This document shows, one piece after another, positions 1 to 32,770 of a DNA stretch of 34,645 nucleotides (the stretch's first letter is position 1; each line of letters begins with the position of its first letter). Where the stretch lies: NCBI GenBank assembly GCA_030594675.1, contig JAUVES010000002.1:1-34645 (forward strand). Direction: 5' to 3'. Origin of the DNA: Candidatus Nanohaloarchaea archaeon. Its GTDB lineage: Archaea; EX4484-52; GLR71. The notes beneath the pieces are model-generated. The model was not told the DNA's origin. It did not search any database and saw only the letters and a list, made by a program, of their open reading frames with translations. The position numbers were made by a program, and so were the translations under genes.

Positions 1-560
1 GGAAATGGCGGTCCTGGATTTGTACCCGAGTTTACAGGATTTGCACCCCAGGACAATATATATTTAGGGGCTATTTTGCCAAAAAAATCACAAAAAGTCA
101 CACTCCCGTATGTTAAAGTTTCTGCTTTTTCTCTAGGCATATAGCAAATTGCATGATGCCCCTCAACATTAGAGCTACCGTATTCATGAGCTAATTCGAC
201 CACAAAAGGACCAAAATGATCTAAAGTACCCATCATAAAAGCAACTGTATGGGCGCCATAATTTTTTTTGGTGTTCTCCAACGACTTAGCCACCAATTCA
301 ATAGCAGAATCCCACGAAATTTCCTTCCATTTTCCACTACCTCTTTTTCCAACTCTTTGTAATGGTCTTTTCAGACGTTTTTTATTATACACATGTTCTA
401 AACTCGCACGACCTTTAGGGCATAAAGCACCCTTGTTTAACGGCGATTTAGGGTCGCCTTTAATTTCTATTATTTTACCATCCTTAATACTAACCAGAAC
501 ACCACAGCCTCCATGGCACATACCGCAAGTACTTTTGAAAACTTTGATATTTTTTGTCAT
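1..560 (-). CDS. Molybdopterin (Mo/W-bis-PGD) oxidoreductase, N-terminal part; gene continues past position 1
   Basis: Absent from the ORF track because it is truncated. My reverse-strand translation from ATG 560-558 reads MTKNIKVFKSTCGMCHGGCGVLVSIKDGKIIEIKGDPKSPLNKGALCPKGRASLEHVYNKKRLKRPLQRVGKRGSGKWKEISWDSAIELVAKSLENTKKNYGAHTVAFMMG... This shows the CxxCxxxC...C 4Fe-4S motif and N-terminal fold signature of the DMSO reductase/formate dehydrogenase superfamily. There is no twin-arginine leader. Substrate unknown. Confidence 0.8.
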   Translation of the reverse strand, partial: MTKNIKVFKSTCGMCHGGCGVLVSIKDGKIIEIKGDPKSPLNKGALCPKGRASLEHVYNKKRLKRPLQRVGKRGSGKWKEISWDSAIELVAKSLENTKKNYGAHTVAFMMGTLDHFGPFVVELAHEYGSSNVEGHHAICYMPREKAETLTYGSVTFCDFFGKIAPKYILSWGANPVNSGTNPGPPF

Positions 561-582
561 AATGGGACCGGCAAATGTTTCG

Positions 583-1236
583 TTAATTTTGCTTAATAGT
601 AAATATGCTTTTAGCATTTTTTAAATCGGTGAGAGTATTTATATTAAAGAAGTCCAAAGAATTATCGAAAGACACAATAGTTGCATGGCTGTTCTCGATG
701 ATTTGCCTCATACTTTGATTAACTGCGCATCCTTTAAAAACATTCTTTTCATACACGGCACAGAAAGGCTGAAAACGACTAGAAAAGGGCACAACACAAT
801 TATATTTTTTTGAATAGTTAATTAATCTTATTATTATTTTTTCTGTAATAAAAGGCATATCACAAGCTATAAGAAAAAAACGATTATTTTTTATATGAAT
901 AATGCCTTTTTTTATACCTGTTGCCGGAGAAAATTCGTTTTCATTGTCAGCTATTATTTTTTCAATTGATGTTAATTCTCTAATATTTTTTACTTGTTGA
1001 TTATTTTTAACAACAATCACAACATCTTCAAAAATATTTTTTACGACATCCAAAACATAACTTACTATGGGGCGTCCATTTAATATACGAAAAGGTTTGT
1101 CTTGAAGACGTTCTGATTTTCCGCCCGCAAGAAGTATGCAACTAATATCGCTACAATATTTTTTATGTTTTTGTTCCACCACAACATATGTTTTGTTAAA
1201 AAACTTAAATAATTGCTGTATCGTTAAAATAACCAC
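583..1236 (-). CDS. mobA: MobA-like molybdenum cofactor nucleotidyltransferase
   Basis: ILLAGGKSERL nucleotide-binding motif near the N-terminus and IACDMPFI motif, both typical of MobA/MocA-type NTP transferases. It lies 22 nt upstream of the Mo oxidoreductase gene on the same strand. The ORF-track start at 1236 is GTG and gives an unusually long N-terminal extension; in-frame GTG codons near 1182/1179 are alternative starts. Confidence 0.6.
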   Translation of the reverse strand: MVILTIQQLFKFFNKTYVVVEQKHKKYCSDISCILLAGGKSERLQDKPFRILNGRPIVSYVLDVVKNIFEDVVIVVKNNQQVKNIRELTSIEKIIADNENEFSPATGIKKGIIHIKNNRFFLIACDMPFITEKIIIRLINYSKKYNCVVPFSSRFQPFCAVYEKNVFKGCAVNQSMRQIIENSHATIVSFDNSLDFFNINTLTDLKNAKSIFTIKQN

Positions 1237-1294: not shown

Positions 1295-1852
1295 ATGCAA
1301 AAAATAAGGGGCTTTGTTTATTTTGAGGGAAAGAATATAGGGGATGTTAAATCCGCTTTTAAGGATTTTACATTTGATGACACAGAACTTGCCTTTTTCA
1401 GCTCGCTTTTAAGGTACGGGCATGAAATTTCATCGCCGGGAGTTTTTATCACAGGAAATGTTGGTGATTCTCATTCGTCAGAAGATATCATAAACAGTCT
1501 AAGAAAACAAATGGATCTTAAAGAAGAATTAAAGGGCTGTGATGTTTCTATTGAATCTGAAGATACTTTAAAATCACTGACCCACGGCGCGCTTAAAGGC
1601 AATTACATCGGAATCAGGATAAGACCGCCTTATGGATTGGATAAAATTTATAATCTGACCTCAAACATTGGCAAGTTGATTAATGCGCATGATATCTTCG
1701 TAAGAACTGTTGAACTGGAAGAAGTAAAACCTATTGTTTGCATTGATTTGATTACAGAAGCCGGGTTTGAAGAAAAAAGAAAAGATGTAGAAGATATTCT
1801 TTCTTCTGAAGGACTAATTTTGGGTAAATACACACGATTTTCTTTTTTATAA
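1295..1852 (+). CDS. Hypothetical protein (185 aa)
   Basis: ATG-initiated ORF with normal composition. It is convergent with the radical SAM cluster and followed by a T-rich spacer (1853-1900). I recognise no motif. Confidence 0.5.
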   Translation: MQKIRGFVYFEGKNIGDVKSAFKDFTFDDTELAFFSSLLRYGHEISSPGVFITGNVGDSHSSEDIINSLRKQMDLKEELKGCDVSIESEDTLKSLTHGALKGNYIGIRIRPPYGLDKIYNLTSNIGKLINAHDIFVRTVELEEVKPIVCIDLITEAGFEEKRKDVEDILSSEGLILGKYTRFSFL

Positions 1853-1900: not shown

Positions 1901-3109
1901 TCATAAATATCTGTTTTTTAGTTCCAGAAGCATATCCCCCGTATAGTTTTTTATATATTCATCCACAAAATCGAGCATTTTTTTGGTTTCGCAGTAATCA
2001 AAACTATTTGCATAATTTCCGCTTAGGACCGGAGTGATGAAATTTAGTTTATTTAACGTACGATATTTTCCAAAAGTTGTTGCAACGAAATCTACTGATC
2101 TATGCACCTCTCTGTAATTGAGCGGATTTAACAGTATGTTGATTTCTACAGAGTGCCCTTTCTCAAGCAGATTTATTATTCCCTGTGTTGTTTGTTCAAA
2201 ACTGTCTTTGCATTGCGTTATTTGGTTATGGATATCCTTTTTATCTGAAAACAAACTTACTTCAAAACATATTTTTTTTGTTTTGTATTTTTCAAACTTG
2301 GCCAAAAAAGCACCAGAACAAAACATCCTCCCGTTAGTCTGTATAATAAGATTTATGTCGTGTCGTGTCATAAATACAGCATTCAACACATCAAAAAAAT
2401 TTTCAAGTATGGTTGGTTCACCTCCGGTGAACACAAGGGATTTGATGTGCTTTTTTCCAATTTTGAAAAAGAGGTATTCCGAAAGTCGCATTCCTGCATT
2501 ATCAAGAAACGGCAATATAGTGGAATTCTTCAAAATAGACTCATTTGGGCAGGTTATGCAGTTGTTGTTGCATTGCCTTGAAATGATTAAAAATTCTTCT
2601 TCAAATTTAGGCGCCCATAAATATGTGTTTTCTGGTTCTGCGCTGTTTATTATTTTTTTTAATGTTGTTAGAGTTCCGATGTTTAGTGTGTGAAAATTAT
2701 ATTTTTGGTAAAAATGCATAAAGTGATATGTATTAAACACAACACTCCATGAAAGTTCATAATGCTTAGTTTTCATCAACGCAAAAGTAAGGTATGCCCA
2801 CAAATCTATGTTTGTCGGACATCTTTCAATCATTTGTAAAAAATAATTTGCTGCAGACTCAAAATCGCCATCAATATATGCAATATGCGCCCTCAAAAAA
2901 AGCACGGTTTCAATATCATTTTCAAACCGCGAAATAAGTTTTTTTATCGCCTCATATTTTGCGTCATTCTCAAATTTTATTTTTTCAAACAGATTAAAAA
3001 GGTGCACGGTAATTGATTTGTCAAACGAAATATCATTAAACTGGTATTTTGGCTCGAAGGCAAATTGATTTTTTAATAATTCAGTTACATTGTTTATATT
3101 AATCACCAA
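1901..3109 (-). CDS. Radical SAM protein with TPR-like N-terminal domain (HxsC-like; no auxiliary-cluster domain)
   Basis: CNNNCITC (CxxxCxxC) at about residue 180, VFTGGEPT SAM-binding motif, and HNQITQCKDSFEQTTQGIINLLEKG, which is paralogous to the 5900-6898 protein. The N-terminal ~150 aa are helical-repeat-like. The start is TTG (3109) or GTG (3106) and overlaps the upstream stop. Confidence 0.8.
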   Translation of the reverse strand: MVININNVTELLKNQFAFEPKYQFNDISFDKSITVHLFNLFEKIKFENDAKYEAIKKLISRFENDIETVLFLRAHIAYIDGDFESAANYFLQMIERCPTNIDLWAYLTFALMKTKHYELSWSVVFNTYHFMHFYQKYNFHTLNIGTLTTLKKIINSAEPENTYLWAPKFEEEFLIISRQCNNNCITCPNESILKNSTILPFLDNAGMRLSEYLFFKIGKKHIKSLVFTGGEPTILENFFDVLNAVFMTRHDINLIIQTNGRMFCSGAFLAKFEKYKTKKICFEVSLFSDKKDIHNQITQCKDSFEQTTQGIINLLEKGHSVEINILLNPLNYREVHRSVDFVATTFGKYRTLNKLNFITPVLSGNYANSFDYCETKKMLDFVDEYIKNYTGDMLLELKNRYL

Positions 3110-4076
3110 AAGATATCATAAACCCCGTTTCCGGTCTTTCCTTTTTAATTTCGCTTAGTATTTTGCTTCGTGAATAAATAATAATTCTTTCGTCTGTCAC
3201 TTTTAGTCGATTCCCTTTTTTAAATAACTCAATATATTTAGCAGGATACAAAGCATAATCCAAAAAATAGCAGTTGTTGTAATTAAGTTCATTTCCGTTT
3301 ACCTGCCCTTCGAAGCCGTAAATATCTCTTTCTTTGAACACAATAAATATTTTCTTCGTGCATTTGTCTATAATTTGTCCATATTTCGGGTCTTTGAGAT
3401 ATATGAACTCTCTTAACATCGATGCCAAATTAGCTGTGTTTTTACAATCAAAACTGCAGGGAATATGATATGCGTAACTATGACTGTCTTTTGTAAGCGT
3501 GTTACACATAAAATTCGGTTTTTTGGTGTTTTTAAAAGGAAGAAACAACGTATTTGCATATTTGTTATGATCATTATACTTCCAAAAAAAATCTATACAA
3601 CATTTCGGATACCCTAAAAATTCGCCAAATTTATAGTGGTCGTATCTTGTTTTTGGTATTACTCTGCCATTTATCGCAAGTGGATACCAACCGAAACCTC
3701 TTCCATCAAGAAGGGTTTTTTTTGTTTTTGAGACAAAAACATGAACAATGCCCAGATAATTTGAACCAATAGGGGCGCAAAATTTTTTTGTTGTAGTCAT
3801 GTATTTCTTGCCGATGGTTTTCTCAGTATCCAAAAAAGGCATATCGATGAAAAGAGATTCCTTGCTTACGAAAAGCCCGTATTTTTTGCATGCTTTCTCA
3901 AATAAATTCATTCGCTCAACAGGTACCCAATCATCAAGTAGTGGCTTTAGGTCTGCAAGCACTGCGTGATATGAAAAAAGTGTTAAATCGCTTTCCTTGG
4001 CAACAACTATTTCACGCAGATAATTTTTAGGCATGTATGTGTTTGGAACTCCATCAGGAACAGTTATTTCTTTCAT
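3099..4076 (-). CDS. Hypothetical Cys-motif protein (325 aa)
   Basis: ATG start, tightly packed between two radical SAM genes. Conserved-looking motifs are GYPKCCIDFF and HIPCSFDCKNT, a possible metal site. I cannot assign a family with certainty. Confidence 0.6.
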   Translation of the reverse strand: MKEITVPDGVPNTYMPKNYLREIVVAKESDLTLFSYHAVLADLKPLLDDWVPVERMNLFEKACKKYGLFVSKESLFIDMPFLDTEKTIGKKYMTTTKKFCAPIGSNYLGIVHVFVSKTKKTLLDGRGFGWYPLAINGRVIPKTRYDHYKFGEFLGYPKCCIDFFWKYNDHNKYANTLFLPFKNTKKPNFMCNTLTKDSHSYAYHIPCSFDCKNTANLASMLREFIYLKDPKYGQIIDKCTKKIFIVFKERDIYGFEGQVNGNELNYNNCYFLDYALYPAKYIELFKKGNRLKVTDERIIIYSRSKILSEIKKERPETGFMISFGD

Positions 4077-4106
4077 AAGAATTATAATTACCCCACCACC
4101 ACTAAT

Positions 4107-5594
4107 TCATTGGCATTTTTCTTTTGTCGCGCAAGATACGCACTCCTTATCCCCGACAGCCCAGCCGCGCACAATGCCCCATTTCTCTTTATCATCCATA
4201 AGCTCATTGAAGATGTAATCAAAAACACCTTTTTTGATTTGGCAATTAAATGAATTCGGTTTCTTTATTATGTTTCCATGCTCACCGTACTCATCTACAA
4301 TGCACGGTCCACAAAAAGGATGATATACGCATTCGGCACAATCAAACGACTGTCCTGTTGTAAGGTCTACAATATCCAAAACATCCCATGAAGAATAAAG
4401 TTCCTCGTATGTTGTCTCTTTTACATTTCCAATCCTGAATGCCTCAAAACTTCTTGCTTCATCGCAGGTATATATGTCTCCTTTGTAATTGTACGCTACC
4501 TGCGACCATGCGCAACCGCAGGGAGATGCAAGGCAGACAAAACCCTGGTATTTTTTGGAAAAAATTATATTTTTCAAAAATATGCTTATTGCCCCCTCGT
4601 GTATATCAATACCTTTTTTATTTAGCTCAATTAGATAGTCAAGGCATTTTTTCCAGAACTCAAGATACTCTTCTGGTGTGTATCCTATTTCATTCCATAC
4701 ATTTGTTGCAAATCCGCCGACATTCATCCTTCTCGCCCAGAAACTTTTCTGTCCCAAACGCACATATTCGTCAATGAGTTCCTTAAAGAAAGGAAGTGTG
4801 TGGCGCGTGATTGTAGGCATAAGAGATATTGTTATTCCTTTTTGTTTTAGTTTTTCAATCCAAAAAAGAACCTCTTTGTGAGTGCCTTTACCGCCATCAT
4901 ATTTCCTATTTTTATTGTGTACGCCTTTAGGGCCATCAAAAGATGAGTTAAGAGCAATCTTGTTTTCAACAAGCCACGAAAGCTTATCTTTATCCATCAG
5001 CGTAAGATTAGACACAAGCCGGAAATCGACTTCTTTTTTCATTTCTTTTGCCTTTGTTTTTGCATATTCGACAATGAATTTTACAATAGGAAAGTTCAAA
5101 AGCGGCTCCCCTCCCTGGAATTCAATGCATATTTTATTTGAAGGCGCCTGAAACATAAAATCAACAACTGCCTTGGCAGTGTCCTTTGTCATGTCATATT
5201 TTTTGTCGTTTTCAGGCTTTGATGCAGCATAACAATACACGCACTTGTGGTTGCACCGAAGCGTTGGGGTAACTATATGTAATGTTGTTGCAGAAAAAAG
5301 CTGGGCGTGTTTGTTTTTTAACTGTGCTGTTGCGGCAGAGATATTGGTTTCAGAAAGAATTATTCCCTCGCTTAAAAGAAGAGAGTAAAGTTCCGGGTCT
5401 TTTTCTACCCCTCCCTGGCGCAGCAGACGAAATTCGTCTTCATCTAAAATCGCCCATCCGCCGTGTAGTGTTGTCACAAGAATTTTTCCATTTAAGAGCG
5501 TCTTATAATTGTAATTTCCAATCACATATTTATCCATATCTAAAGAATATGTTTTTCCCATAAAATCACTATTTTGACACGCTGACTTCCTCAT
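4107..5594 (-). CDS. Radical SAM/SPASM-domain maturase (HxsB / anaerobic sulfatase maturase-like)
   Basis: CNHKCVYC radical SAM motif and FQGGEPLL. The C-terminal SPASM pattern is C-x10-G-x4-C (CAWSQVAYNYKGDIYTC) followed by CAECVYHPFCGPC. The alternative ATG at 5561 would remove the overlap with the upstream gene. Confidence 0.85.
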   Translation of the reverse strand: MRKSACQNSDFMGKTYSLDMDKYVIGNYNYKTLLNGKILVTTLHGGWAILDEDEFRLLRQGGVEKDPELYSLLLSEGIILSETNISAATAQLKNKHAQLFSATTLHIVTPTLRCNHKCVYCYAASKPENDKKYDMTKDTAKAVVDFMFQAPSNKICIEFQGGEPLLNFPIVKFIVEYAKTKAKEMKKEVDFRLVSNLTLMDKDKLSWLVENKIALNSSFDGPKGVHNKNRKYDGGKGTHKEVLFWIEKLKQKGITISLMPTITRHTLPFFKELIDEYVRLGQKSFWARRMNVGGFATNVWNEIGYTPEEYLEFWKKCLDYLIELNKKGIDIHEGAISIFLKNIIFSKKYQGFVCLASPCGCAWSQVAYNYKGDIYTCDEARSFEAFRIGNVKETTYEELYSSWDVLDIVDLTTGQSFDCAECVYHPFCGPCIVDEYGEHGNIIKKPNSFNCQIKKGVFDYIFNELMDDKEKWGIVRGWAVGDKECVSCATKEKCQ

Positions 5595-5826
5595 GTATTG
5601 TATGATTTAAAAATTCCAAAAGTATTTCTTTAAATTCATCCCGGCTAATTTCTATCTTCGGTTTAAAATAAACATTAATCTGCTTTTTATCTCTTGAAAA
5701 TTCTACAGTCATCTTGAACATGTGCTGGAATCTTTCGCAAACTTCAGATAGGGAATACATGCTATAGAATTCTGAGTTAAAATTTATTTTTGCGCTGTCA
5801 TTTATGAATTGAATAGGCAATGCCAT
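5569..5826 (-). CDS. HxsD-like small protein (85 aa)
   Basis: Small ORF with ATG start and a GAGGT Shine-Dalgarno 8 nt upstream. It is paralogous to 6895-7389 (INFNSEFYSM vs IKINSTVYPM; VYFKPK vs VTLKPK). The C-terminal EFLNHTIHEE resembles the LLNDYxLRE signature I remember for HxsD. It directly precedes the SPASM enzyme. Confidence 0.5.
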   Translation of the reverse strand: MALPIQFINDSAKINFNSEFYSMYSLSEVCERFQHMFKMTVEFSRDKKQINVYFKPKIEISRDEFKEILLEFLNHTIHEEVSVSK

Positions 5827-5899
5827 TGAAATACCTCTGTCTGTCTGAAACTATTGTTTACCGTACTTTTATAAATAATGGTGTGAATGAATTGTAAAC

Positions 5900-6898
5900 T
5901 CACGAACCAATTGCGACAATAGATTTTATTTTCTTTCCTGCAACTGGCTTGAATTCTTTGCCGCCGTAAAGCTCGATATATTCGCGCCAAACTCCTTCGC
6001 AAACATAAAAATATCTGCACTCCTTGCATTGTGGAGGCTTGGATTTTATCCTTAGCCGCTCTTCCTGCCAGTTCATTGCCGGGTCGTCAACCTGCCTAAG
6101 TTCTGTTGTGGTGCCATCCATATAGTGCTCGAGGAAGTTGATTTCAGAAGCACAATTTTCAAAACATTTAAGAAAACAAAACGGAATCGCTTCGAACGAG
6201 ACATTTATTCCTTTATCTTTGCCAAAAGAGGCGGCATCAACCACATAAGGATGTATTTCTGTGTATTTTGGGACTAGGTCAAACCAGTATTTTCTTGCGT
6301 TGCCCATGCCATGAGGAAATGCTATGTCAACACCATTTACACCCAAATTGTAAGCCAATTCAACTATTTTTTCCAAATCCTTGAAATTAAGGCGCGATAT
6401 TACAACCTTAAAATTCACGCTTTTAGCACCGCAATCAATGAGATTCTTTATTCCTGCAACTGTCTGTTCAAAAGAGCCTTTGACCCGTGTGATTTTATCG
6501 TGCGCATCTTTTCTGTTGGAATGAAGGGCAACTTCAAAATGCATGTTGGGGACAATCTCAAGAGTCTTTCCTGCAAAGTCTTTTACACAGAAAGACCTTC
6601 CGTTTGTCTGAAGACCAACATTCATGCCCTCTGTTTTTGCAAACTTCAAAAGCTCAAGAAAATCAGGCCGTATTGTGACTTCACCGCCTGTGAAAACAAC
6701 TGATGATGCTCCTTTTTTCTTTGCATCAAGAAGGTGCTCTTTTATTTCATCTGTTGTCCTGTCAATTGGTTTTTTTTCATTTAATATTCGCTCTTTGTGC
6801 CCTGCGATAACGCAATGGATGCAGTTGTTGTTACAGGAATATCCGAACTTTATGTCAACAGATTCTATCTTTTGCGCATCCATAGAACACAGGCTCAC
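5900..6898 (-). CDS. Radical SAM protein with C-terminal Cys-rich (SPASM/twitch-like) region (HxsC-like)
   Basis: CNNNCIHC motif near the N-terminus, VVFTGGEVT, HDKITRVKGSFEQTVAGIKNLIDCG, and C-terminal CFLKCFENC and CKECRYFYVC. The track start is GTG at 6898, forming a GTGA overlap with the upstream stop. An ATG at 6883 (MDAQKIES...) is equally plausible. Confidence 0.85.
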   Translation of the reverse strand: MSLCSMDAQKIESVDIKFGYSCNNNCIHCVIAGHKERILNEKKPIDRTTDEIKEHLLDAKKKGASSVVFTGGEVTIRPDFLELLKFAKTEGMNVGLQTNGRSFCVKDFAGKTLEIVPNMHFEVALHSNRKDAHDKITRVKGSFEQTVAGIKNLIDCGAKSVNFKVVISRLNFKDLEKIVELAYNLGVNGVDIAFPHGMGNARKYWFDLVPKYTEIHPYVVDAASFGKDKGINVSFEAIPFCFLKCFENCASEINFLEHYMDGTTTELRQVDDPAMNWQEERLRIKSKPPQCKECRYFYVCEGVWREYIELYGGKEFKPVAGKKIKSIVAIGS

Positions 6899-7389
6899 TT
6901 ATCTTCTATTTTCCCTTTCTGTTCATCCCATGGTTTTGCTATGTCTTCCATGGAAACATCACATTTTTCAACATCATCCATAATCGGGACTTTTGTGCCT
7001 ATATCGATTTTTACTTTTTCAAGCTTTTTTGACTCGAATTCCTTATCTTGATTTGTTTCTTTCTTGCCTTCGTTCGGCAGAACAGAAAAAAACGCCCGCT
7101 TCAGCATTGCCTCGCGGATGTCGCGGTTTACTTGCGCCCGTACAAAATAAGCTGCGTAATTCACAAGCTCATTTTGAAAATCGCCTGCAAGTGCCTCAAG
7201 ACCTGTGTCCTGTTCTTTGGGCTTTAATGTAACAATTATTTCTTTTTCCGGATCCCCGTCAAGAGATACATATGCCTTATCGATAAACACATCGGCTGCC
7301 TGATATATTATGCCCATTGGATAAACCGTGGAATTTATTTTAATCTCTACAGTTCCTTCTTTTATGTCAAATGAAACATTTTTTTTCAT
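6895..7389 (-). CDS. HxsD-like protein with ~65-aa charged C-terminal extension (164 aa)
   Basis: I moved the start to ATG 7389 (MKKNVSFDIK...), which has GGAGGT 8 nt upstream. The longer track ORF (to 7509) would overlap the giant gene. FQNELVNYAAYFVRAQVNRDIREAMLKRAF fits the HxsD-type C-terminal motif. The tail is PNEGKKETNQDKEFESKKLEKVKIDIGTKVPIMDDVEKCDVSMEDIAKPWDEQKGKIEDK. Confidence 0.5.
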   Translation of the reverse strand: MKKNVSFDIKEGTVEIKINSTVYPMGIIYQAADVFIDKAYVSLDGDPEKEIIVTLKPKEQDTGLEALAGDFQNELVNYAAYFVRAQVNRDIREAMLKRAFFSVLPNEGKKETNQDKEFESKKLEKVKIDIGTKVPIMDDVEKCDVSMEDIAKPWDEQKGKIEDK

Positions 7390-7424
7390 GCATATAACCT
7401 CCATAAATAAACAAGGAATGACTT

Positions 7425-7465
7425 TTAAGTTTATACATATAACTACGCCAGAAGATATATAAATC
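7425..7465 (-). promoter_or_regulatory. Putative promoter region of the radical SAM cluster
   Basis: In the 100-nt gap after the giant ORF stop, the minus strand reads ATTTATATAT (7463-7454) and TATATGTATAAA (about 7445-7430), 45-70 nt upstream of ATG 7389. Confidence 0.3.
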
Positions 7466-7489
7466 GTGCGGGAGCTTAAGAGATAGTTG

Positions 7490-10400
7490 CTATTTCTCCC
7501 AAACGCCAATCAGATGCTTGTTGTTCTCGTCTTCGCCCCAATTATGCACAACAACCATATGTTGTCCTTCGCCCATTTTCTCCTTGTTGTTGAAGTTTAT
7601 GTTGTTGTATTCAAGCCCTGTTTGTATCCTGTATATCTTGTCAATCCCGAAACCGAAGCTTGGGTTTGGCATCTTTTCTATTTCTCCTGACTGGATGTAT
7701 GGGATTCTTCGCTCTATTGAGCTTATATCTCCTTTAGAATACACGACATATGCTTTTGCGCTTTTGCCTTCTGCCAGAATTCCCTGTGTCAATGCCATGT
7801 AGTTTGCACCGGAAGATACATTGTTGAATGTCCCTCCTGCATGGATAAGCCCTGCAAGAGTTCCTCCTGCAAAGTTTGTTGCCACGTATTTTGCCGCTGT
7901 ATCTTCCACTGGCGAAAAGCCGGAACCTACAAATTTCACAACAACAAAGCCGGATGTTATTTCAAAATTCCTTGTTTTGCTGGCATAAACACCGAAGGTG
8001 TTGTTGCACCAAAACACAACACTGTGCGAGCCCCTTGAAATCCCAAAAACAAACCTGTAGTAGTCCAGTTGAGTGTCATTTGCCATTGTGATGTTTTGTG
8101 CCCCGTCCAAAGAGTATCCGCACCAAGAGACTCTCTGGTCCAAAGAGCTGTTGAACCATGTATCTCCCCCGTGCATCTCTGTTGGGGGGTATATAATTGT
8201 GATTTGCGGGGCAAGCGCGTCTACTTCAAAGTATATTGTGGTTGAATTCATGTTTCCTGCTGTGTCATTGGCGTATACTGTAATGTAGTGTGTGCTTTCA
8301 GACAAAATGGTGGTATTTGCATCAATAGCAGTTGTCCAAGCGCCCGTAATGTTTGTTCCCCCGTCAATTGCGTACCACATTGAATCCGGATATAGGTCGC
8401 TCTGTGTGGCGTTTATGTGGGGGGTGTTATCGTCTGTTGTTGTGCTTGTTGGCTCAAAGATTGTTATTGTTGGTTTTGTTATGTCAACTGTGAAGTATTT
8501 GGTTGTCGAGTTCATGTTTCCTAAAGTATCGTTGCAGAAGAATGTAACATTATGGGAACCTTCGCTGACGATTGACAGATTGTTCCAATTGCCTGAACTG
8601 TTTGTCATTGTTACATTCGCTGTTCCATCCAATGAATAACCGCACCAATCACCGGCTTCGTCGAGTGTTATGTTGAACCAAGTCGATGTTGTATTGTATG
8701 ACTTGTTTTCCGGGGACTGTATTATTATTGTCGGTGGTGTTGAATCATCTGAAAGCACTGTAAAATTTGTCGTATTTTCAGCGTAAATTCCATTCGCATT
8801 CGTCAAATTGATTTTTACTGTGTGGATGCCTGCCGTCTGAGGTGCAATAAATGTGTAGTTATATCCGCCAGTAGAGTTCGTTACCGCAGCATTCTGTTCT
8901 GCGCCGACTGAAAGTATTGTTGGCTCGGGAACTGTGTATTTTCGGTTGTGCTCTGTATCAAACCCCTGTGTGTATGCTGAAGGTGTTGATGATTCTGAAA
9001 TTGAATAGGCACTTAAACGTATTCTACCATATCCTCCATTTCCGCCGGATTCGCCGCAACAAGCAACTGGCTGCCCAAGCCCATAAGATGTATTAGTAGT
9101 TAATGAAGAAATATTATTAGCTGTCATAAAAATACTTCCACCTGCACCGCCAGCCTGTCCTTCTCCGCCAGAAACCCAATCTCCGCCTTTGGCAGTAATA
9201 GAACCAGTAACCAACGAAGAATAAACCATAACTATGCCGCCGCCAGCGCCGCCAAAAGCAGTTGGTCCTCCATTACTTCCACCTCCACCTCCGGAACCTA
9301 AGAATGTGGTTGAAAGATCTGAAGAACCATATGTTGTTCCGCCCCGCCCCCTATATTCACTAACACTCTGTGCCGTCCCATCACTGCCCGTAGTTCCATG
9401 ACCTCCACCGCCCCCCCCGGCACGGTCATTTCTCGGACTTGAAATCTGCTGTCCGCCTCCGCCTCCGCCTAAATTAACGAATCTGTTTGCAGTGCCTTTG
9501 CCTTGATAGCTTTCACCTTGTATGCCTACGGCATTTCCAGGCCAACTTCCCCAAGTTCCACCAACACCCCCTCTATATCCTTTTGCAGTGACATTGATAG
9601 TTCCCTGAATGTTGACTATTCCGTTCGCCCTGAAAACCACGATTCCTCCTTTATATCCATCCCATGCCGGTGCTGTTATGCTTGCCCAGGAATCGACAGT
9701 CACACTAGTGTATTGGGGAACACGGACAACCTGCGTTACTGTAGATGTTGTCGAATCAAATGTGCCCGAAGTATAATTGTTTTTTAATGAGGTATCAAGA
9801 GTTAGAGTCGTTGTTCCCCCGCCAGAATCTATCTTTTTGAATTCGTATGTTCCGGCTGCACCGCCAGAACTGTTTTGCATTTGTATTATTAGAATTTCGT
9901 CCCCATCTGAAAAAGCGGTTCCGCTATTGACTGCTATTATATTGTCTCCTGTGTTTTCGTTTCCAGTTAAATAAGTATAAGTATTTATTACTGTGTTTGC
10001 ATAGGAAACGGTTAATGGTCCGCTGGAGCCATCACCATAAAAATCCATCACATTGAAATAATCGCTTAAGCTTGGAGCTTCAGGATTTCCATAATACATA
10101 TACAATGTCATATTGCCGTTATCCGCGATAGACGGAACTTTCACCCAAATCAAGGCATTGTTTGCAGTCCAGTTTTCAATCCAGAACGAGATATTCTGCT
10201 CTATGCCGCTTATTGTGTTAAGTGAGGTAAATCTTGTGTCATTGCCGTTAGAATTTGCCTTTGTGAAGTTGAAATTTAACGATGTTAGATTTACAAGAAC
10301 CTGATAATCTGTTTGTTCTGTCGTCGAGCCGTTTATTATGATTGCCTTACGGTATGGCCACAATGCCTGTGACTCGCCTGCTGGAGTGTAATTGCCGGGG

Positions 10401-13400
10401 TTTATAACATTGACAAGTTGCCCGTCCAAAAAAATATTAATGCTGTTATTCACAATATTAGTATTGTCCGGCTGAAGCATTGCCTGCCCAAAAACAGTTA
10501 CATTTTCGCCAGAGTTTACGATTAATGGTGTAAGAGTTTCGGTTATTTCTATTTGTTTTACCGCAAATGTTGTATTTATTATTGTTGCTGTGTTAAATCC
10601 GTCGGTCAAATTAGCATAGAATGAAACATTATATTGCCCCAAAGCCAGGCTTGAGAATGTATCATCATACCATGTTCCGCCAGAAACATCGCCCGAGAGA
10701 AAATAAATATAAGACTCTGACGAGTTTGAAACATTTGTCCAGACCTGTGAAATATTAACTGTTGGGTATTTGATGTTGCTTAAAGGAATATTCACAGAAA
10801 TATTGACCGTCTCACCAACATTCACGCTCGAAGTGCCTGTATTTACACCTTTTGCGTTCGGGCTTTGCAAATTAATTATTACTGTGAAATTCGTTTCATT
10901 TGAGCCAATAATGTTATTCGAATCAGTGAGATTGACTTTCAATGTATAATTGCCAACAATTACCGGAGCAATAAATGTGTAGCTATATCCGCCGGTAGAA
11001 TTTGTGATTATGGCGTTTTGCTCCGCGCCGACTAAAATTACGGTTGGCTCGATTGATGTGTATTTTCGAACGCGGACATCATCATAATACCCGGAAGAAC
11101 ATCTTCCAATCAAATGCACATTTATAAAATCCAGATTTGCTATTGCTGCATTTGTCATTTCCCCTCTTAATGTTGTAGCATCTACGGTGTCAAAATACCA
11201 TTTGATATTCGTTCCACTAACAATTGTTTTCGCATGATGCCAAGTATTAGCAGGAAAATTCCCTGCATCACTTGTCCAGCCAATAGAACTACCACCCTCT
11301 GTAACTCCGAATCGAGTATACATAACAGCATGAGGTTGTGTGTCTACCTCAAATTTCACAAAATTATTTGAATCTTCAAATAGGTAACTATAAGGTTGAT
11401 TGCCGGCAGCGACTCTACCTTGAAACCAATAATCAAAAACAAGACTGTGGGTGGATGTAAAATTATTAGAAATAGCGCGCTCTGATTCCGAAACATCGCA
11501 GGAATCCAGACCCTGGACTTTCATTGAATAACTTCCACCGCGTACATAAGTAGAATCAATTACTCCTTTACCAACTTGCTGCCAGGCATTTAATGTTCCG
11601 CCCTCAAAATCATCAAAGAACTTAAATGTTGCAGTACCGTTGCTTGAGGATGAAGCAGAAGGGTTCCCGTAATACATATATAATGTCGTATTGCCGTTAT
11701 CCGCGATAGACGGAACTTTCACCCAAATCAAGGCATTGTTTGCAGTCCATTTTTCAATCCAGAACGAGATATTCTGCTCTATGCCGCTTATTGTGTTAAG
11801 TGAGGTAAATCTTGTGTCATTGCCGTCAGAATTTGCCTTTAGGAAGTTGAAATTTAACGATGTTAGAGTTACAAGAACCTGATAATCTGTTTGTTCTGTC
11901 GTCGAGCCGTTTATCGTGATTGCCTTACGATATGGCCACAATGCCTGTGATTCGCCTGCTGGAGTGTAATTGCCGGGGTTTATAACGCTTACAGCCTGAC
12001 CGTCTAAAAACAGATTCATATTGTTGTTTGCAACCGGAGTGCCGTCCGCTGTATATGTCGCATGACCAATGACTGTGACTGAGTCTCCTGGGATTACAAG
12101 CGTTTGGGTTAATGATTCAGTTAATATTATGTTGGTACTTGTAATTGTCCTCGTCTCGGTCTGGTTCACATTCCCTGCCAAATCCTGTGCGTAGGCAGTG
12201 TAGGTGTAGGTACCGTCTTCCAGGTCAGTGAAGTTGTGGTACAATCTGTAGAGTCCGGTGTTGTAGGAGGCGTTGATTTCTTCGGGGGAGAGGGCACGGT
12301 TCCAGATGCGGACTTCGTCTATGGTGCCGTTGAAGCATGTCGATGACCCACATTGCCAATATTCATCACGACCAATTTTTGTAGTTACGGGTGCAATATT
12401 GATATTTCCTGTAAGAGAATATGGAAAATCACGAGTATTTTCTGCCCCATTAATATATACTCGCATATAAGAACCATCATAACTAGCCACAATATGATAC
12501 CAATTTCCAACTAAAAAAGAATCACTATTCGATATACCACCATTCCAATCACTACCATCGGTAGATATTCTCCATTCGACATTATCGGATGATGCCCCTC
12601 TTGCTAACATCCAACCATAGTTACCGCCGCCAGAATGTTTAGATGCAACCCTTAAATTATTGTCCGCATTTGCTTTCACCCACGCCTCAATAGTAATCGC
12701 ATCAGTGATATTCAAACTTACATCATTCCCGCAATCCACATAATCATTCATACCATCAAACCTAAGGGCTTTGCCGAATTTCCCGCTTGTCGTCCAGCCA
12801 GAGCAGTTGCCTGTGCAGTTGTCTAATCCGGGGTTCATGTTGGTTAGGGTGCCGTTGTTACCGTAGGTTGACCAGTCTCTTGCGAAGGTGTCGTTCTCGC
12901 CGGCTTCAAGGTTGAACCTCCACCAGCCGACCAAAGAGTTGTTCCAGTCGATGAAGGCGGTGATGTTATTGGTGTCGTTTGCTGTGACATTGATGTATGT
13001 GTAATCGTTGCTTGTGGTGTTGCCGTCGTCAGGGGTGGGCGGGACGAAGTAGATGTCGGGGTTTGTTGTATCAATAGTTATGGTTCTTGTGTCAGTCTGG
13101 TTCACATTCCCTGCCAGATCCTGTGCGTAGGCTGTGTAGGTGTATGTTCCTTCTGCGAGGTTGGTGAAGTTTGTTTCTAATCTGTATAGCCCTGTATTGT
13201 AGGAAGCGTTGATCTCTTGGGGGGTTAGGACACGGTTGTAGATTTTTACCTCGTCGATGGTGCCGTTGAAATGTTCATCGCCGCCTCCTGCATTAACACC
13301 AATATCAAAGTATCCGTTAGAAAGTGTCTCTATTTGGTTATTATAGTTACAACTTGCATTTAATATCCCATTTACATATACTTTCATATTATCTGAAGCC

Positions 13401-27024: not shown

Positions 27025-27140
27025 GCGTTCGTAGTCTATTGGTATGATTTCGGCCTTCCACAACTAAGCAGTTTTGCTTTTTCAATCCTGCTTGTTGAAG
27101 ACAGCCGACGGCCCGGGTTCGACTCCCGGCGAACGCACCA
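27025..27140 (+). tRNA. trnG: tRNA-Gly(UCC) with 42-nt intron (27061-27102) at position 37/38; CCA encoded
   Basis: Acceptor GCGTTCG/CGAACGC, anticodon stem TCGGC/GCCGA, loop CUUCCA|intron|A, T-arm CCGGG-TTCGACT-CCCGG, discriminator A, CCA at 27138-27140. The intron junctions fold into a canonical bulge-helix-bulge: a 3-nt bulge CAC (27059-61), a 4-bp helix CTTC/GAAG and a 3-nt bulge ACA (27101-03). The intron also has an internal hairpin AAGCAG/CTGCTT. Confidence 0.85.
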
Positions 27141-27144
27141 AAAT

Positions 27145-27260
27145 GGACCGGTGGTCTAGTTGGTTATGACATCGCCTTGACGGACTTGATGCAGGATTCT
27201 TATTTTGCATATTGTTTAAATTGGCGAAGATCGGCGGTTCGACTCCGCCTCGGTCCACCA
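27145..27260 (+). tRNA. trnV: tRNA-Val(GAC) with ~39-nt intron (27183-27221) at position 37/38; CCA encoded
   Basis: Acceptor GGACCGG/TCGGTCC (one G-U pair), D-arm GGTCTAGTTGGTTATGAC, anticodon stem TCGCC/GGCGA, loop UUGACG|intron|U, T-arm GGCGG-TTCGACT-CCGCC. The BHB-like junction has a helix TTGA/TTAA flanked by 3-nt bulges CGG and ATT; the outer intron helix is weak. Confidence 0.8.
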
Positions 27261-27468: not shown

Positions 27469-27545
27469 GCTCCTGTAGTGTAGTCCGGTAATCATTTGGG
27501 ACTCTCACTCCCAAGACCCGGGTTCGATTCCCGGCGGGAGCACCA
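27469..27545 (+). tRNA. trnE: tRNA-Glu(CUC), no intron; CCA encoded
   Basis: Acceptor GCTCCTG/CGGGAGC (one U-G pair), anticodon stem TGGGA/TCCCA, loop CUCUCAC, T-arm CCGGG-TTCGATT-CCCGG, discriminator A, CCA, then T5 at 27547-27551. Confidence 0.9.
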
Positions 27546-27631
27546 ATTTTTCAGTTCTTTAAGAAAAATATATATACTACCCACAACAAAAATAATATAT
27601 TGATATAGTACGATAGCGATTGGTGCCTTTT

Positions 27632-32729: not shown

Positions 32730-32770
32730 ATATCCAATAAGGTTAACTGCGTATATATAATTACAGGGAT

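What the first reader, a model, noticed from the sequence alone, without database searches (positions are those of the whole stretch)
1901..7389. Orphan HxsBCD-like radical SAM cluster (three rSAM enzymes, two HxsD-like proteins) with no visible precursor, directly downstream of the giant surface-protein gene
Six co-directional, tightly packed genes are present. In transcription order they are: HxsD-like (164 aa), an rSAM with a Cys-rich C-terminus (332 aa), HxsD-like (85 aa), an rSAM with a complete SPASM domain (495 aa), a Cys-motif protein (325 aa), and a TPR-rSAM (402 aa). Established knowledge: in the bacterial His-Xaa-Ser system a repeat peptide (HxsA) is encoded with two radical SAM maturases (HxsB with SPASM, and HxsC) and the small protein HxsD. 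Here the enzyme set is expanded with a second HxsD-like and a second HxsC-like gene. I find no His-Xaa-Ser repeat or other short Cys/His-rich ORF in the cluster or its gaps (4077-4106, 5827-5899, 7390-7489). The substrate is therefore unknown. Candidates are a peptide encoded elsewhere, the tail of the 164-aa protein, the 325-aa protein, or the neighbouring Cys-containing pilins or giant protein. TATA-like boxes at about 7430-7463 and 5867-5878 suggest the cluster has its own promoters, so linkage to the giant gene is positional only.
Basis: partly seen in the sequence, partly recalled or inferred. Interest (0 to 1): 0.7.

Follow-up and report, generated by a model that had tools for sequence, protein, structure and literature searches.

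The report
Archaeal HXS-type maturase cluster, precursor elsewhere
Six packed genes in an archaeal contig encode the enzyme half of a His-Xaa-Ser (HXS) radical-SAM protein-maturation system, a kind shown in 2026 to block phage DNA entry in E. coli; the protein it modifies is not in this window, but related clusters encode one.

Summary
Window 1901-7389 (minus strand) carries six intact, tightly packed genes: HxsD-like (164 aa), HxsC4-like rSAM (332), HxsD-related (85), HxsB (495, probably 484), a Cys-rich DUF483-like protein (325, "F325") and a TPR-HxsC-like rSAM (402). Only HxsB passes its curated cut-off (428 vs 370 bits). No His-Xaa-Ser or His-rich ORF exists in any frame of the 34.6-kb window.

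Related clusters encode HxS-repeat precursors with a shared leader and a hydrophobic segment. This includes a DPANN archaeal locus with 74% HxsB identity, where a 127-aa precursor lies 6.4 kb from hxsB. That precursor defines a 15-member archaeal family.

The HxsD tail and F325 also occur in clusters that have a precursor, so they are accessories, not substitutes. The four core genes are under purifying selection (dN/dS 0.10-0.14). MoaA-type assignment fails.

My reading: this is the maturase part of a modular archaeal HXS-like system, and its precursor and further accessory genes (prepilin-type peptidase, U32) lie off-window. It is a new variant of a known kind. Canonical HXS is an E. coli antiphage system (Nat Commun 2026). 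The archaeal form and the F325-TPR module were not found in the searchable literature.

The parts
6895..7389 (-). HxsD-like adaptor protein, 164 aa. The HxsD domain covers residues 16-103. An acidic tail ends in a conserved ...EDIAKPWDEQKGKIE motif.
   Evidence: TIGR03976 HxsD 39 bits, E 7.6e-10, below the cut-off of 50. Orthologues in L003, L006 and L119-L121 carry precomputed PF27806 HxsD. The tail motif is conserved in loci with and without a precursor. 88% identical to L121; dN/dS 0.13.
5900..6898 (-). HxsC4-like radical SAM enzyme, 332 aa. It has a CNNNCIHC motif and two C-terminal Cys triads (C241/245/249 and C291/294/300).
   Evidence: NF038332 HxsC4 132.7 bits, full length (cut-off 500); TIGR03977 HxsC 98.9 bits; PF04055 78.5 bits. 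Motif at window 6812-6835. Its start overlaps the HxsD stop by 4 nt. dN/dS 0.14.
5569..5826 (-). HxsD-related small protein (Drel), 85 aa, always directly upstream of hxsB in the archaeal clade.
   Evidence: NF038315 HxsD_rel 33.2 bits, E 4.4e-8, cut-off 41. Orthologues lie upstream of HxsB in L006 (separated by a YcaO gene), L008, L009 and L119-L121. dN/dS 0.11.
4107..5594 (-). HxsB, a radical SAM/SPASM maturase. The ORF is 495 aa; the likely true start is Met12 at 5561, giving 484 aa.
   Evidence: TIGR03978 428.2 bits, above the cut-off of 370. CNHKCVYC at 5232-5255 and nine further Cys in residues 354-451. SPASM PF13186 21.2 bits. Closest relatives are named HxsB in DPANN, Aenigmarchaeota and Altiarchaeales MAGs.
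3099..4076 (-). F325, a Cys-rich DUF483-like accessory protein, 325 aa, with an invariant LGYPxCC ... HxPCxxxC signature. Its fold is unassigned.
   Evidence: PF04467 23.5 bits, below 25. Rare family: 19 hits in the word-indexed search; 94 cluster representatives at E<=1e-30 among 1.84 billion. AlphaFold2 model: pLDDT 87, pTM 0.87. No Foldseek hit with E<=0.001 in PDB or BFVD. In 24 distinct loci it is followed by a TPR protein or a TPR-rSAM fusion, directly or after one intervening rSAM gene.
1901..3109 (-). TPR-HxsC-like radical SAM enzyme, 402 aa. N-terminal TPR repeats are followed by an rSAM core with CNNNCITC. There is no C-terminal Cys cluster.
   Evidence: TIGR03977 HxsC 110.9 bits for residues 162-351 (cut-off 267.9). 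TPR_2, TPR_14 and TPR_17 hits at residues 69-118 (18.8 bits or less, below cut-offs). PF04055 44.4 bits. Motif at 2549-2572. Overlaps the F325 stop by 11 nt.
7456..7463 (-). TATA-like box (TTTATATA) 67 nt upstream of the HxsD-like ATG. A GGAGG lies 9-13 nt before the ATG.
   Evidence: Read directly from the sequence. A consensus resemblance only; function not tested.
5867..5875 (-). Second TATA-like box (TTTATAAAA) in the 73-nt gap before the Drel gene.
   Evidence: Read directly from the sequence. A consensus resemblance only; function not tested.
1295..1852 (+). Conserved 185-aa neighbour of unknown function, convergent to the cluster. It may be only syntenic.
   Evidence: No Pfam or NCBIfam family. 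68-69% identical homologues lie convergent to hxsB in L119 and L121. dN/dS 0.25. Absent from L120, L006, L008 and L009.

Best explanation
The six genes are the maturase part of an archaeal (DPANN- or Altiarchaeota-like) member of the His-Xaa-Ser (HXS) family of radical-SAM protein-maturation systems. They belong to the extended branch that NCBIfam catalogues as HxsA3, HxsA4, HxsC4 and HxsD_rel.

Shown:
- HxsB is a true HxsB.
- Two further rSAM enzymes are HxsC-class.
- Two small proteins are HxsD-class.
- The genes form three coupled pairs, each a non-catalytic partner followed by an rSAM enzyme: HxsD-C4, Drel-HxsB and F325-TPR-HxsC.
- The four core genes are under purifying selection.
- Related clusters encode precursors with a basic leader, a hydrophobic segment and 4 to 28 His-Xaa-Ser/Asn/Thr motifs.

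Inferred:
- Each partner presents the precursor to its enzyme, as HxsD does for HxsC in E. coli.
- The enzymes install covalent modifications on HxS motifs.
- The precursor is then N-terminally processed, probably by the A24 prepilin-type peptidase that sits in most related archaeal clusters, and displayed outside the membrane.
- In this genome the precursor gene, the A24 peptidase and the U32 genes lie outside the 34.6-kb window and act in trans.

By analogy with E. coli HXS, the end product may hinder viral DNA entry at the cell surface. This last step is the least supported.
For: Family assignment:
- HxsB scores 428 bits against a cut-off of 370. HxsC, HxsC4, HxsD and HxsD_rel are the best matches of the other four proteins.
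- The closest HxsB relatives are annotated HxsB in DPANN, Aenigmarchaeota, Altiarchaeales and Nanoarchaeota MAGs.

Archaeal origin:
- Two intron-bearing tRNA genes.
- Membrane proteins of the ArlJ/FlaJ/UpsF type.
- Archaeal pilin N-termini.

Orthologous loci:
- L121, L119 and L120 keep HxsD-C4-Drel-HxsB at 69-88% identity.
- L120 has a 127-aa precursor (leader HMM E 3e-15; HxsA3 NF038309 at 19.9 bits). It belongs to a 15-member archaeal family with invariant HDHCDPGH, HSSADG.P.SHC and HKNYVYLNYG motifs.
- Bacterial loci L003, L012, L014, L004, L020, L025, L026, L028 and L030, and the Altiarchaeales locus L089, have precursors next to hxsB.
- Among loci with a genuine HxsB, 11 of 17 show a precursor. 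The six without one are the window and its short-contig relatives.

F325 as a module:
- F325 and TPR travel together in 24 distinct loci.
- In Streptomyces, F325-like genes sit beside HxS peptides.

Selection and precedent:
- dN/dS is 0.10-0.14 for the four core genes.
- In E. coli, HxsBCD mature HxsA (+8 Da at SHRSS, N-terminal processing), HxsC binds HxsD, and the system blocks phage DNA entry (PMC13128918).
Against: - No precursor, A24 peptidase or U32 gene is in the window, and the rest of the genome cannot be inspected. "In trans" is therefore an inference.
- Five other loci of the same clade (L006, L008, L009, L119, L121) also show no precursor in the 10-21 kb held.
- In L119 the position that holds the precursor in L120 holds another rSAM gene.
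- HxsC, HxsD, HxsC4 and HxsD_rel all score below their curated cut-offs, so only HxsB is a formal member.
- L119, L120 and L121 lack F325-TPR-HxsC in the DNA held. The window's combination of modules is seen only in more distant relatives (L006, L008, L009).
- A defence role rests on one study of a distant bacterial homologue whose effector has a peptidoglycan-binding domain. That domain has no counterpart here.
Confidence: 0.6

Rival explanations
1. Substrate shift. In this lineage the maturases no longer act on an HxS-repeat protein. They act instead on another local protein: the neighbouring pilins, the giant surface proteins, or the conserved 185-aa neighbour.
For: - The cluster lies directly downstream of, and co-directional with, a type IV pilus and adhesin locus.
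- Related clusters embed an A24 prepilin-type peptidase.
- L120 has a giant Laminin_G_3/Big_13 protein about 2 kb from its cluster.
- The 185-aa gene is conserved next to hxsB in L119 and L121.
- Six loci of the clade show no precursor.
Against: - No pilin-type ORF occurs in any related locus held, apart from one in the remote locus L049.
- The surface proteins of L119 and L120 show no BLAST similarity to those of the window.
- The pilins have no His-rich or repeated motif.
- The only His of the 185-aa protein's SHSS is Tyr in its orthologues, and the gene is absent from L120, L006, L008 and L009.
- L120, with the same four-gene core, does have an HxS precursor.
Confidence: 0.15
2. Incomplete remnant. 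A rearrangement separated the maturase genes from the precursor and accessory block, and the cluster is now functionless or decaying.
For: - Compared with L119 and L121, the U32/A24/beta-propeller/rSAM block next to the 185-aa gene is replaced here by MobA and a molybdopterin oxidoreductase. F325-TPR-HxsC is inserted between hxsB and the 185-aa gene.
- No precursor is in the window.
Against: - All six ORFs are intact, with rSAM motifs and conserved Cys residues.
- dN/dS is 0.10-0.14 against L121.
- Tight spacing, ribosome-binding sites and TATA-like boxes are retained.
- F325-TPR-HxsC also occur apart from hxsB in L115, so dispersed modules appear normal for this clade.
Confidence: 0.1
3. Cofactor pathway. 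The rSAM enzymes make or mature a molybdenum-type cofactor or a molybdoenzyme, given the adjacent MobA-like gene and molybdopterin oxidoreductase.
For: - A MobA-like gene (583-1236) and the N-terminus of a molybdopterin oxidoreductase (3-617) flank the cluster.
- In L010 the homologous oxidoreductase ends 26 nt upstream of F325.
Against: - MoaA models score 72 bits or less against cut-offs of 231-325. HxsB passes its own equivalog cut-off, and the best hits of the others are all Hxs families.
- Most related loci have no molybdenum genes.
- Related clusters encode ribosomal HxS precursors.
Confidence: 0.03

Closest known systems
HXS antiphage system of E. coli and other Pseudomonadota (HxsD-HxsB-HxsC-HxsA; Haft & Basu 2011 families TIGR03976-03979; Li et al., Nat Commun 2026, PMC13128918)
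   Same: - A bona fide HxsB (SPASM rSAM).
- HxsC-class rSAM enzymes and HxsD-class small proteins.
- In orthologous archaeal and bacterial clusters, a ribosomal precursor with several His-Xaa-Ser motifs. The archaeal family has about 4-5, like the five of E. coli HxsA.
- Adaptor-plus-enzyme pairing, consistent with the HxsC-HxsD complex.
   Different: - Archaeal host. The paper places 99.7% of HXS systems in Pseudomonadota.
- Gene order is D-C4-Drel-B-F325-TPRC rather than D-B-C-A.
- There are two HxsD-like and two HxsC-like genes, both HxsC-like proteins scoring below the HxsC cut-off.
- An extra Cys-rich F325 protein and a TPR domain are present.
- No HxsA is in the window.
- Related precursors carry a leader and a hydrophobic anchor instead of a peptidoglycan-binding domain.
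- A defence function has not been tested.
NCBIfam extended Hxs families: HxsA3 (NF038309), HxsA4 (NF038313), HxsC4 (NF038332), HxsD_rel (NF038315)
   Same: - The 332-aa enzyme aligns end to end with HxsC4.
- The 85-aa protein aligns with HxsD_rel.
- Precursors in the related loci L004, L020, L026, L089 and L120 hit HxsA3 or HxsA4.
   Different: - Every score is below the curated cut-off (132.7 vs 500; 33.2 vs 41; 20-52 vs 65), so these are relatives, not members.
- No paper describing these variants was found.
SPASM-domain peptide and protein maturases (PapB, anSME, SCIFF maturase, QhpD)
   Same: HxsB shares their rSAM core and a two-cluster SPASM C-terminus. PapB scores 168.8 bits and anSME 100.2 bits.
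   Different: All score far below their cut-offs. The context is Hxs-specific, and the chemistry of HxsB is still undefined even in E. coli (+8 Da, mechanism unknown).
Archaeal class III (prepilin or pre-archaellin) signal-peptide processing by A24 peptidases (PibD/FlaK type)
   Same: - Related clusters encode an A24 peptidase.
- The archaeal precursor leader ...KSFMLEEKGG/ASKQ..., followed by a hydrophobic stretch, resembles a Lys-Gly/Ala cleavage site. This rests on my own knowledge of archaellin signal peptides.
   Different: - No Pfam pilin or archaellin N-terminal match for the precursors.
- The hydrophobic segment starts several residues after the putative site.
- The window itself has no A24 gene.

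Membership tests
HXS system (canonical HxsABCD) | HxsB radical SAM/SPASM maturase reaching the TIGR03978 equivalog cut-off | tested here: met
   428.2 bits vs cut-off 370, E 3.6e-128, profile positions 4-466 of 466.
HXS system (canonical HxsABCD) | HxsC radical SAM maturase reaching the TIGR03977 equivalog cut-off | tested here: not met
   332-aa protein 98.9 bits and 402-aa protein 110.9 bits vs cut-off 267.9. Both are homologous but not equivalogs.
HXS system (canonical HxsABCD) | HxsD small protein (TIGR03976 / PF27806) | tested here: inconclusive
   164-aa protein 39 bits vs cut-off 50, E 7.6e-10. Orthologues carry a precomputed PF27806 HxsD hit. The local Pfam copy returned no hit.
HXS system (canonical HxsABCD) | HxsA effector with His-Xaa-Ser repeats encoded with the maturases | tested here: not met
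   No H-x-S-rich or His-rich ORF in six frames of the 34.6-kb window. Leader and family HMMs are negative. A precursor is present in orthologous loci.
HXS system (canonical HxsABCD) | Gene order HxsD-HxsB-HxsC-HxsA (99.6% of systems, PMC13128918) | tested here: not met
   The order here is HxsD-C4-Drel-HxsB-F325-TPR-HxsC.
HXS system (canonical HxsABCD) | Blocks entry of viral DNA (antiphage activity) | not testable with these tools
   PADLOC 2023 has no HXS models and gave only generic pVip rSAM similarity.
NCBIfam HxsA4/HxsC4-type variant | HxsC4 (NF038332) at cut-off 500 | tested here: not met
   132.7 bits. It is nevertheless the best family, aligned over residues 9-319 to profile positions 11-335 of 335.
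NCBIfam HxsD_rel (NF038315) | Score of at least 41 bits | tested here: not met
   85-aa protein 33.2 bits, E 4.4e-8, profile positions 1-60 of 62.
Radical SAM superfamily | CxxxCxxC cluster motif and a PF04055 domain | tested here: met
   PF04055 at 78.5, 69.4 and 44.4 bits (cut-off 29.5). Motifs CNNNCIHC, CNHKCVYC and CNNNCITC.
SPASM domain (PF13186) | C-terminal 7-8 Cys auxiliary-cluster domain | tested here: inconclusive
   HxsB scores 21.2 bits vs cut-off 21.5. Nine Cys lie in residues 354-451, and the match covers the full HxsB model.
MoaA / molybdenum cofactor rSAM | MoaA equivalog score (TIGR02666, TIGR02668, NF001199) | tested here: not met
   Best 71.7 bits vs cut-off 325.25.
DUF483 (PF04467) | Pfam gathering score of 25 | tested here: not met
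   F325 scores 23.5 bits over residues 144-215 only. It is a distant relative sharing the GYPxCC region.

The most novel reading that the evidence does not exclude
DPANN-type archaea and several uncultured bacterial phyla possess a modular, multi-locus HXS-like system. Up to five HxsC-class rSAM enzymes take part, each paired with an HxsD-type adaptor, a TPR adaptor or the new-fold Cys-rich F325 protein. Together they mature a pilin-like, A24-cleaved, membrane-anchored HxS protein that is displayed at the cell surface. That protein would act as an archaeal barrier to viral DNA entry, or as a surface metal or host-contact factor. In this genome the maturases would serve a precursor encoded elsewhere, next to the pilus and giant-adhesin locus.
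Probability: 0.2. Interest if true: 0.7.

Novelty: new variant of a known kind. Interest (0 to 1): 0.42.

Why it matters
HXS has been characterised experimentally only in E. coli, and only in 2026. The chemistry of its +8 Da modification and the roles of HxsB, HxsC and HxsD are still unknown. Its distribution was reported as almost exclusively Pseudomonadota.

This window and its relatives show an archaeal and candidate-phyla branch with extra parts:
- a second HxsD-type adaptor;
- HxsC4-like and TPR-fused HxsC-like enzymes;
- a Cys-rich protein of unassigned fold that travels with TPR proteins and HxS peptides, even in Streptomyces;
- an embedded prepilin-type peptidase.

It also has a compact, highly conserved 108-127-aa precursor family. 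These give natural variants for working out which enzyme does what, and a candidate protease for the unexplained N-terminal processing. If the defence role carries over, this would be a surface-level antiviral barrier in archaea. For the window itself the result is modest: it holds a partial, precursor-less set of maturase genes.

Tried and rejected
1. Precursor in the window. I searched all six frames for H-x-S and H-x-[SNT] density and for His-rich segments. I also ran three successive leader HMMs, an HMM of the 15-member archaeal precursor family, and tblastn. All were negative.
2. HxsD tail as substrate. Rejected because the PWE(E/D)K motif is conserved in loci that have precursors.
3. F325 as substrate. 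Rejected because it is a confidently folded protein (pLDDT 87) with invariant Cys and His residues, and it is present beside real precursors.
4. Fold assignment for F325. Foldseek against PDB and BFVD, and a profile search of PDB sequences, gave nothing significant. The best match was 2guk, of unknown function, at E 0.08.
5. Pilin or giant-adhesin co-occurrence. No class III signal-peptide ORFs in related loci, and no similarity between the surface proteins of L119 or L120 and those of the window.
6. MoaA or other cofactor assignment. Rejected on scores.
7. PADLOC defence models. Only generic viperin-like rSAM similarity.
8. Metagenome scan for more close relatives of F325. It added almost nothing.
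9. Tracing precursor homologues to the window's source runs (SRR18920790 and SRR18920791). The cluster look-up returned no accessions.
10. Pfam test of a pilin- or archaellin-like leader in the precursors. No support.

Full report
**1. What is in the window**

Six co-directional ORFs on the minus strand fill window 1901-7389.
- Gaps between them are 30, 73 and 100 nt.
- Three pairs overlap or abut: 164 aa/332 aa (4 nt), 85 aa/495 aa, and 325 aa/402 aa (11 nt).
- Each of the three enzymes has a CxxxCxxC motif, at window 6812-6835, 5232-5255 and 2549-2572.

NCBIfam results:
- The 495-aa protein is HxsB: TIGR03978, 428.2 bits against a cut-off of 370.
- The 332-aa protein matches HxsC4 best (NF038332, 132.7 bits, end to end) and then HxsC (98.9 bits).
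- The rSAM core of the 402-aa protein matches HxsC (110.9 bits).
- The 164-aa protein matches HxsD (39 bits).
- The 85-aa protein matches HxsD_rel (33.2 bits).
- All of these except HxsB fall below the curated cut-offs.
- MoaA-type models reach at most 72 bits against cut-offs of 231-325, so a cofactor reading is rejected.

Pfam results:
- TPR repeats at the N-terminus of the 402-aa protein, all below their cut-offs.
- A borderline SPASM hit in HxsB.
- A sub-threshold DUF483 hit in the 325-aa protein, called F325 here.

Comparison with three close orthologues places the HxsB start at Met12 (window 5561, 484 aa). TATA-like boxes and GGAGG sites precede the first and third genes.

**2. The host is an archaeon**

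- Two 113-nt tRNA genes, apparently intron-bearing, are found by Rfam but not by ARAGORN.
- The two T2SSF proteins match archaeal ArlJ/FlaJ, UpsF and BasF best.
- Four pilins and a 1071-aa protein carry class III signal peptides of the K-G-I-S-P-L-I type.
- The closest HxsB sequences come from MAGs named DPANN group archaeon, Aenigmarchaeota, Altiarchaeales and Nanoarchaeota.

**3. No precursor in the window**

- No stretch of any reading frame has 3 or more H-x-S in 40 residues, a raised H-x-[SNT] density, or 6 or more His in 30 residues outside shadow frames.
- Profile HMMs built from precursor leaders and from the full archaeal precursor family find nothing.

**4. Orthologous clusters do have precursors**

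F325 is rare. The word-indexed search gave 19 hits, and the exhaustive search gave 94 cluster representatives at E<=1e-30 among 1.84 billion. This made it a good handle for finding related loci.

Bacterial MAG loci:
- L003/L011, L012 and L014 have the order HxsD, HxsB, three tandem ~275-aa proteins, rSAM, C4-like rSAM, F325, TPR-rSAM.
- Each of the three tandem proteins carries 24-29 His-Xaa-Ser/Asn/Thr motifs and ends in HxSHxSW.
- L004/L019, L020, L025, L026, L028 and L030 have shorter precursors of 89-140 aa.

All these precursors share a leader, roughly (L/I)Pxh(K/V)x(D/E)hxx(F/Y)hxxEE(G/A)xhSxKxh, followed by a hydrophobic segment. They hit NCBIfam HxsA3 and HxsA4 below cut-off.

Archaeal loci:
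- The Altiarchaeales locus L089 has HxsD, HxsB and a 116-aa precursor.
- The HxsB search gave three much closer loci. L121 is 84-88% identical to the window across HxsD, C4, Drel and HxsB. L119 is 77-83% identical. L120, from a DPANN archaeon, is 69-74% identical.
- All three keep the HxsD-C4-Drel-HxsB block.
- L120 encodes a 127-aa precursor on the opposite strand, 6.4 kb beyond hxsB (leader HMM E 3e-15; HxsA3 19.9 bits).
- That protein defines a 15-member archaeal family of 108-127 aa. Its invariant motifs are HDHCDPGH, HSSADG.P.SHC and a C-terminal HKNYVYLNYG. It has about four to five HxS motifs, similar to the five in E. coli HxsA.

**5. Modular architecture**

Across the loci held, four modules recur:
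- (a) HxsD, C4, Drel and HxsB. In bacteria this is HxsD and HxsB.
- (b) F325 with a TPR protein or a TPR-rSAM fusion, seen in 24 distinct loci.
- (c) A C4-like rSAM, U32, a ~295-aa unknown protein, an A24 prepilin-type peptidase, a beta-propeller protein and further C4-like rSAMs.
- (d) The precursor.

How the loci differ:
- The window has modules (a) and (b) only.
- L119, L120 and L121 have (a) and (c), and L120 also has (d).
- L006, L008 and L009 have (a), (b) and most of (c).
- L115 has (b) near an A24 peptidase but no hxsB.

Relative to L119 and L121, the window has F325-TPR-HxsC inserted between hxsB and a conserved convergent 185/186-aa gene. MobA and a molybdopterin oxidoreductase occupy the place of module (c).

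Among the 17 loci with a genuine HxsB, 11 show a precursor. The six that do not are the window and its clade relatives held on 10-21 kb of DNA. Dispersal of modules therefore looks normal in this clade, and a precursor encoded in trans is the simplest reading.

**6. Candidates that can be set aside**

- The tail of the 164-aa HxsD-like protein ends in a motif (DDPLGIAxPWEEKxG; EDIAKPWDEQKGK in the window). The motif is conserved whether or not a precursor is present. It is therefore more likely a docking motif.
- F325 folds confidently (pLDDT 87, pTM 0.87) and has invariant C63, C159, C160, C207, C211 and H112, with H204 conserved in at least 90% of sequences. It co-occurs with true precursors.
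- F325 has no structural neighbour in PDB or BFVD. In Streptomyces, F325-like genes lie beside small ORFs ending in SHHxSHSSHSSFSSFSSHSS. This ties the family to HxS peptides across phyla.
- Pilins are absent from the related loci held, apart from one pilin-like ORF in the remote locus L049. The surface proteins near L119 and L120 are not similar to the window's.
- The His in the 185-aa neighbour's SHSS is Tyr in its orthologues.

**7. Is the cluster alive?**

All six ORFs are intact. dN/dS against L121 is 0.13 (HxsD), 0.14 (C4), 0.11 (Drel) and 0.10 (HxsB).

**8. How it probably works**

Shown:
- The family relationships.
- The three adaptor-enzyme gene pairs.
- The existence and features of the precursors in orthologous loci.

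From the literature (PMC13128918):
- In E. coli, HxsB, HxsC and HxsD are all needed to process HxsA.
- A +8 Da modification maps to an SHRSS motif.
- HxsC binds HxsD.
- Mature HxsA is exported and blocks phage DNA entry.

Inferred here:
- HxsD-C4, Drel-HxsB and F325-TPR-HxsC act as three maturase units on an HxS precursor.
- The A24 peptidase of related loci removes the leader. The archaeal leader ...KSFMLEEKGG/ASKQ... resembles a pre-archaellin site. This rests on my own knowledge, and Pfam does not support it.
- The product is displayed at the membrane surface.
- An antiviral role is only an analogy.

**9. Novelty**

- Canonical HXS is known.
- NCBIfam already holds models for HxsA3, HxsA4, HxsC4 and HxsD_rel, and NCBI's pipeline already names archaeal HxsB.
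- The literature searches found only the 2026 E. coli study, its preprint and passing mentions.
- I found no description of the archaeal branch, the F325-TPR module, the embedded A24 peptidase or the DPANN precursor family.
- The window itself is a partial instance. I rate it a new variant of a known kind, of moderate interest.

Noticed in passing
window 27025-27137 and 27145-27257 (+): Two adjacent 113-nt tRNA genes (Rfam RF00005, 52.7 and 51.7 bits) that ARAGORN missed. Their length implies introns of about 40 nt, an archaeal trait. An ordinary tRNA-Glu(CTC) follows at 27469-27545.
   Followed up: partly
window 7490-22528 (-): A 5012-aa secreted protein with NosD/beta-helix, multiple Laminin_G_3, two DUF2341, Big_13 and DUF5122 beta-propeller repeats. 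It contains long, nearly identical internal duplications, for example the ...QALWPYRKAI.INGSTTEQTDYQVLV... block, which occurs twice.
   Followed up: partly
window 29559-32774 (-): A 1071-aa protein that starts with a pilin-type class III signal peptide (KKGISALITVVLLIVFT) and then carries DUF2341 and Laminin_G_3 domains. It looks like a giant pilin-adhesin fusion.
   Followed up: no
window 1295-1852 (+); L119 9227-9787 (-); L121 3400-3960 (-): A 185/186-aa protein with no Pfam or NCBIfam family. It is conserved (68-69% identity, dN/dS 0.25) and sits convergent to the Hxs cluster in three related archaeal contigs. Whether it belongs to the system is unknown.
   Followed up: partly
window 3-617 (-) and 583-1236 (-); L010 865-2964: The N-terminus of an FdhA/PhsA-like molybdopterin oxidoreductase and a MobA-like gene flank the cluster. 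In L010 the homologous oxidoreductase ends 26 nt upstream of F325. The adjacency appears in two lineages but not in most loci.
   Followed up: partly
L120 17872-18255 (-) and proteins P0289-P0303: A tightly conserved DPANN family of 108-127-aa HxS precursors. Invariant motifs are HDHCDPGH, HSSADG.P.SHC and a C-terminal HKNYVYLNYG. The leader ...KSFMLEEKGGASKQ... looks like an archaellin or pilin cleavage site. NCBI annotates the family only as hypothetical.
   Followed up: partly
L035 1727-2035, L037 6653-6931, L039 6572-6931 (Streptomyces): Small ORFs ending in ...SHHxSHSSHSSFSSFSSHSS..WSGR lie just upstream of an rSAM gene and an F325-like gene. This suggests an actinobacterial HxS-peptide pathway that uses the same Cys-rich accessory protein.
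   Followed up: no
L006, L008, L009, L119-L121 (also L020, L023): A long (345-364 aa) Peptidase_A24 homologue and one or two Peptidase_U32 homologues are embedded in the Hxs-like clusters. L006 and L121 also have a YcaO gene. L008 and L009 have a carbamoyltransferase.
   Followed up: partly
window 27620-29551 (+): A 643-aa, Lys/Glu-rich, coiled-coil-like protein with no Pfam family. It is the only long plus-strand gene in the right half of the window, and it coincides with a strong AT-skew excursion (0.35 at 28001-29000).
   Followed up: no
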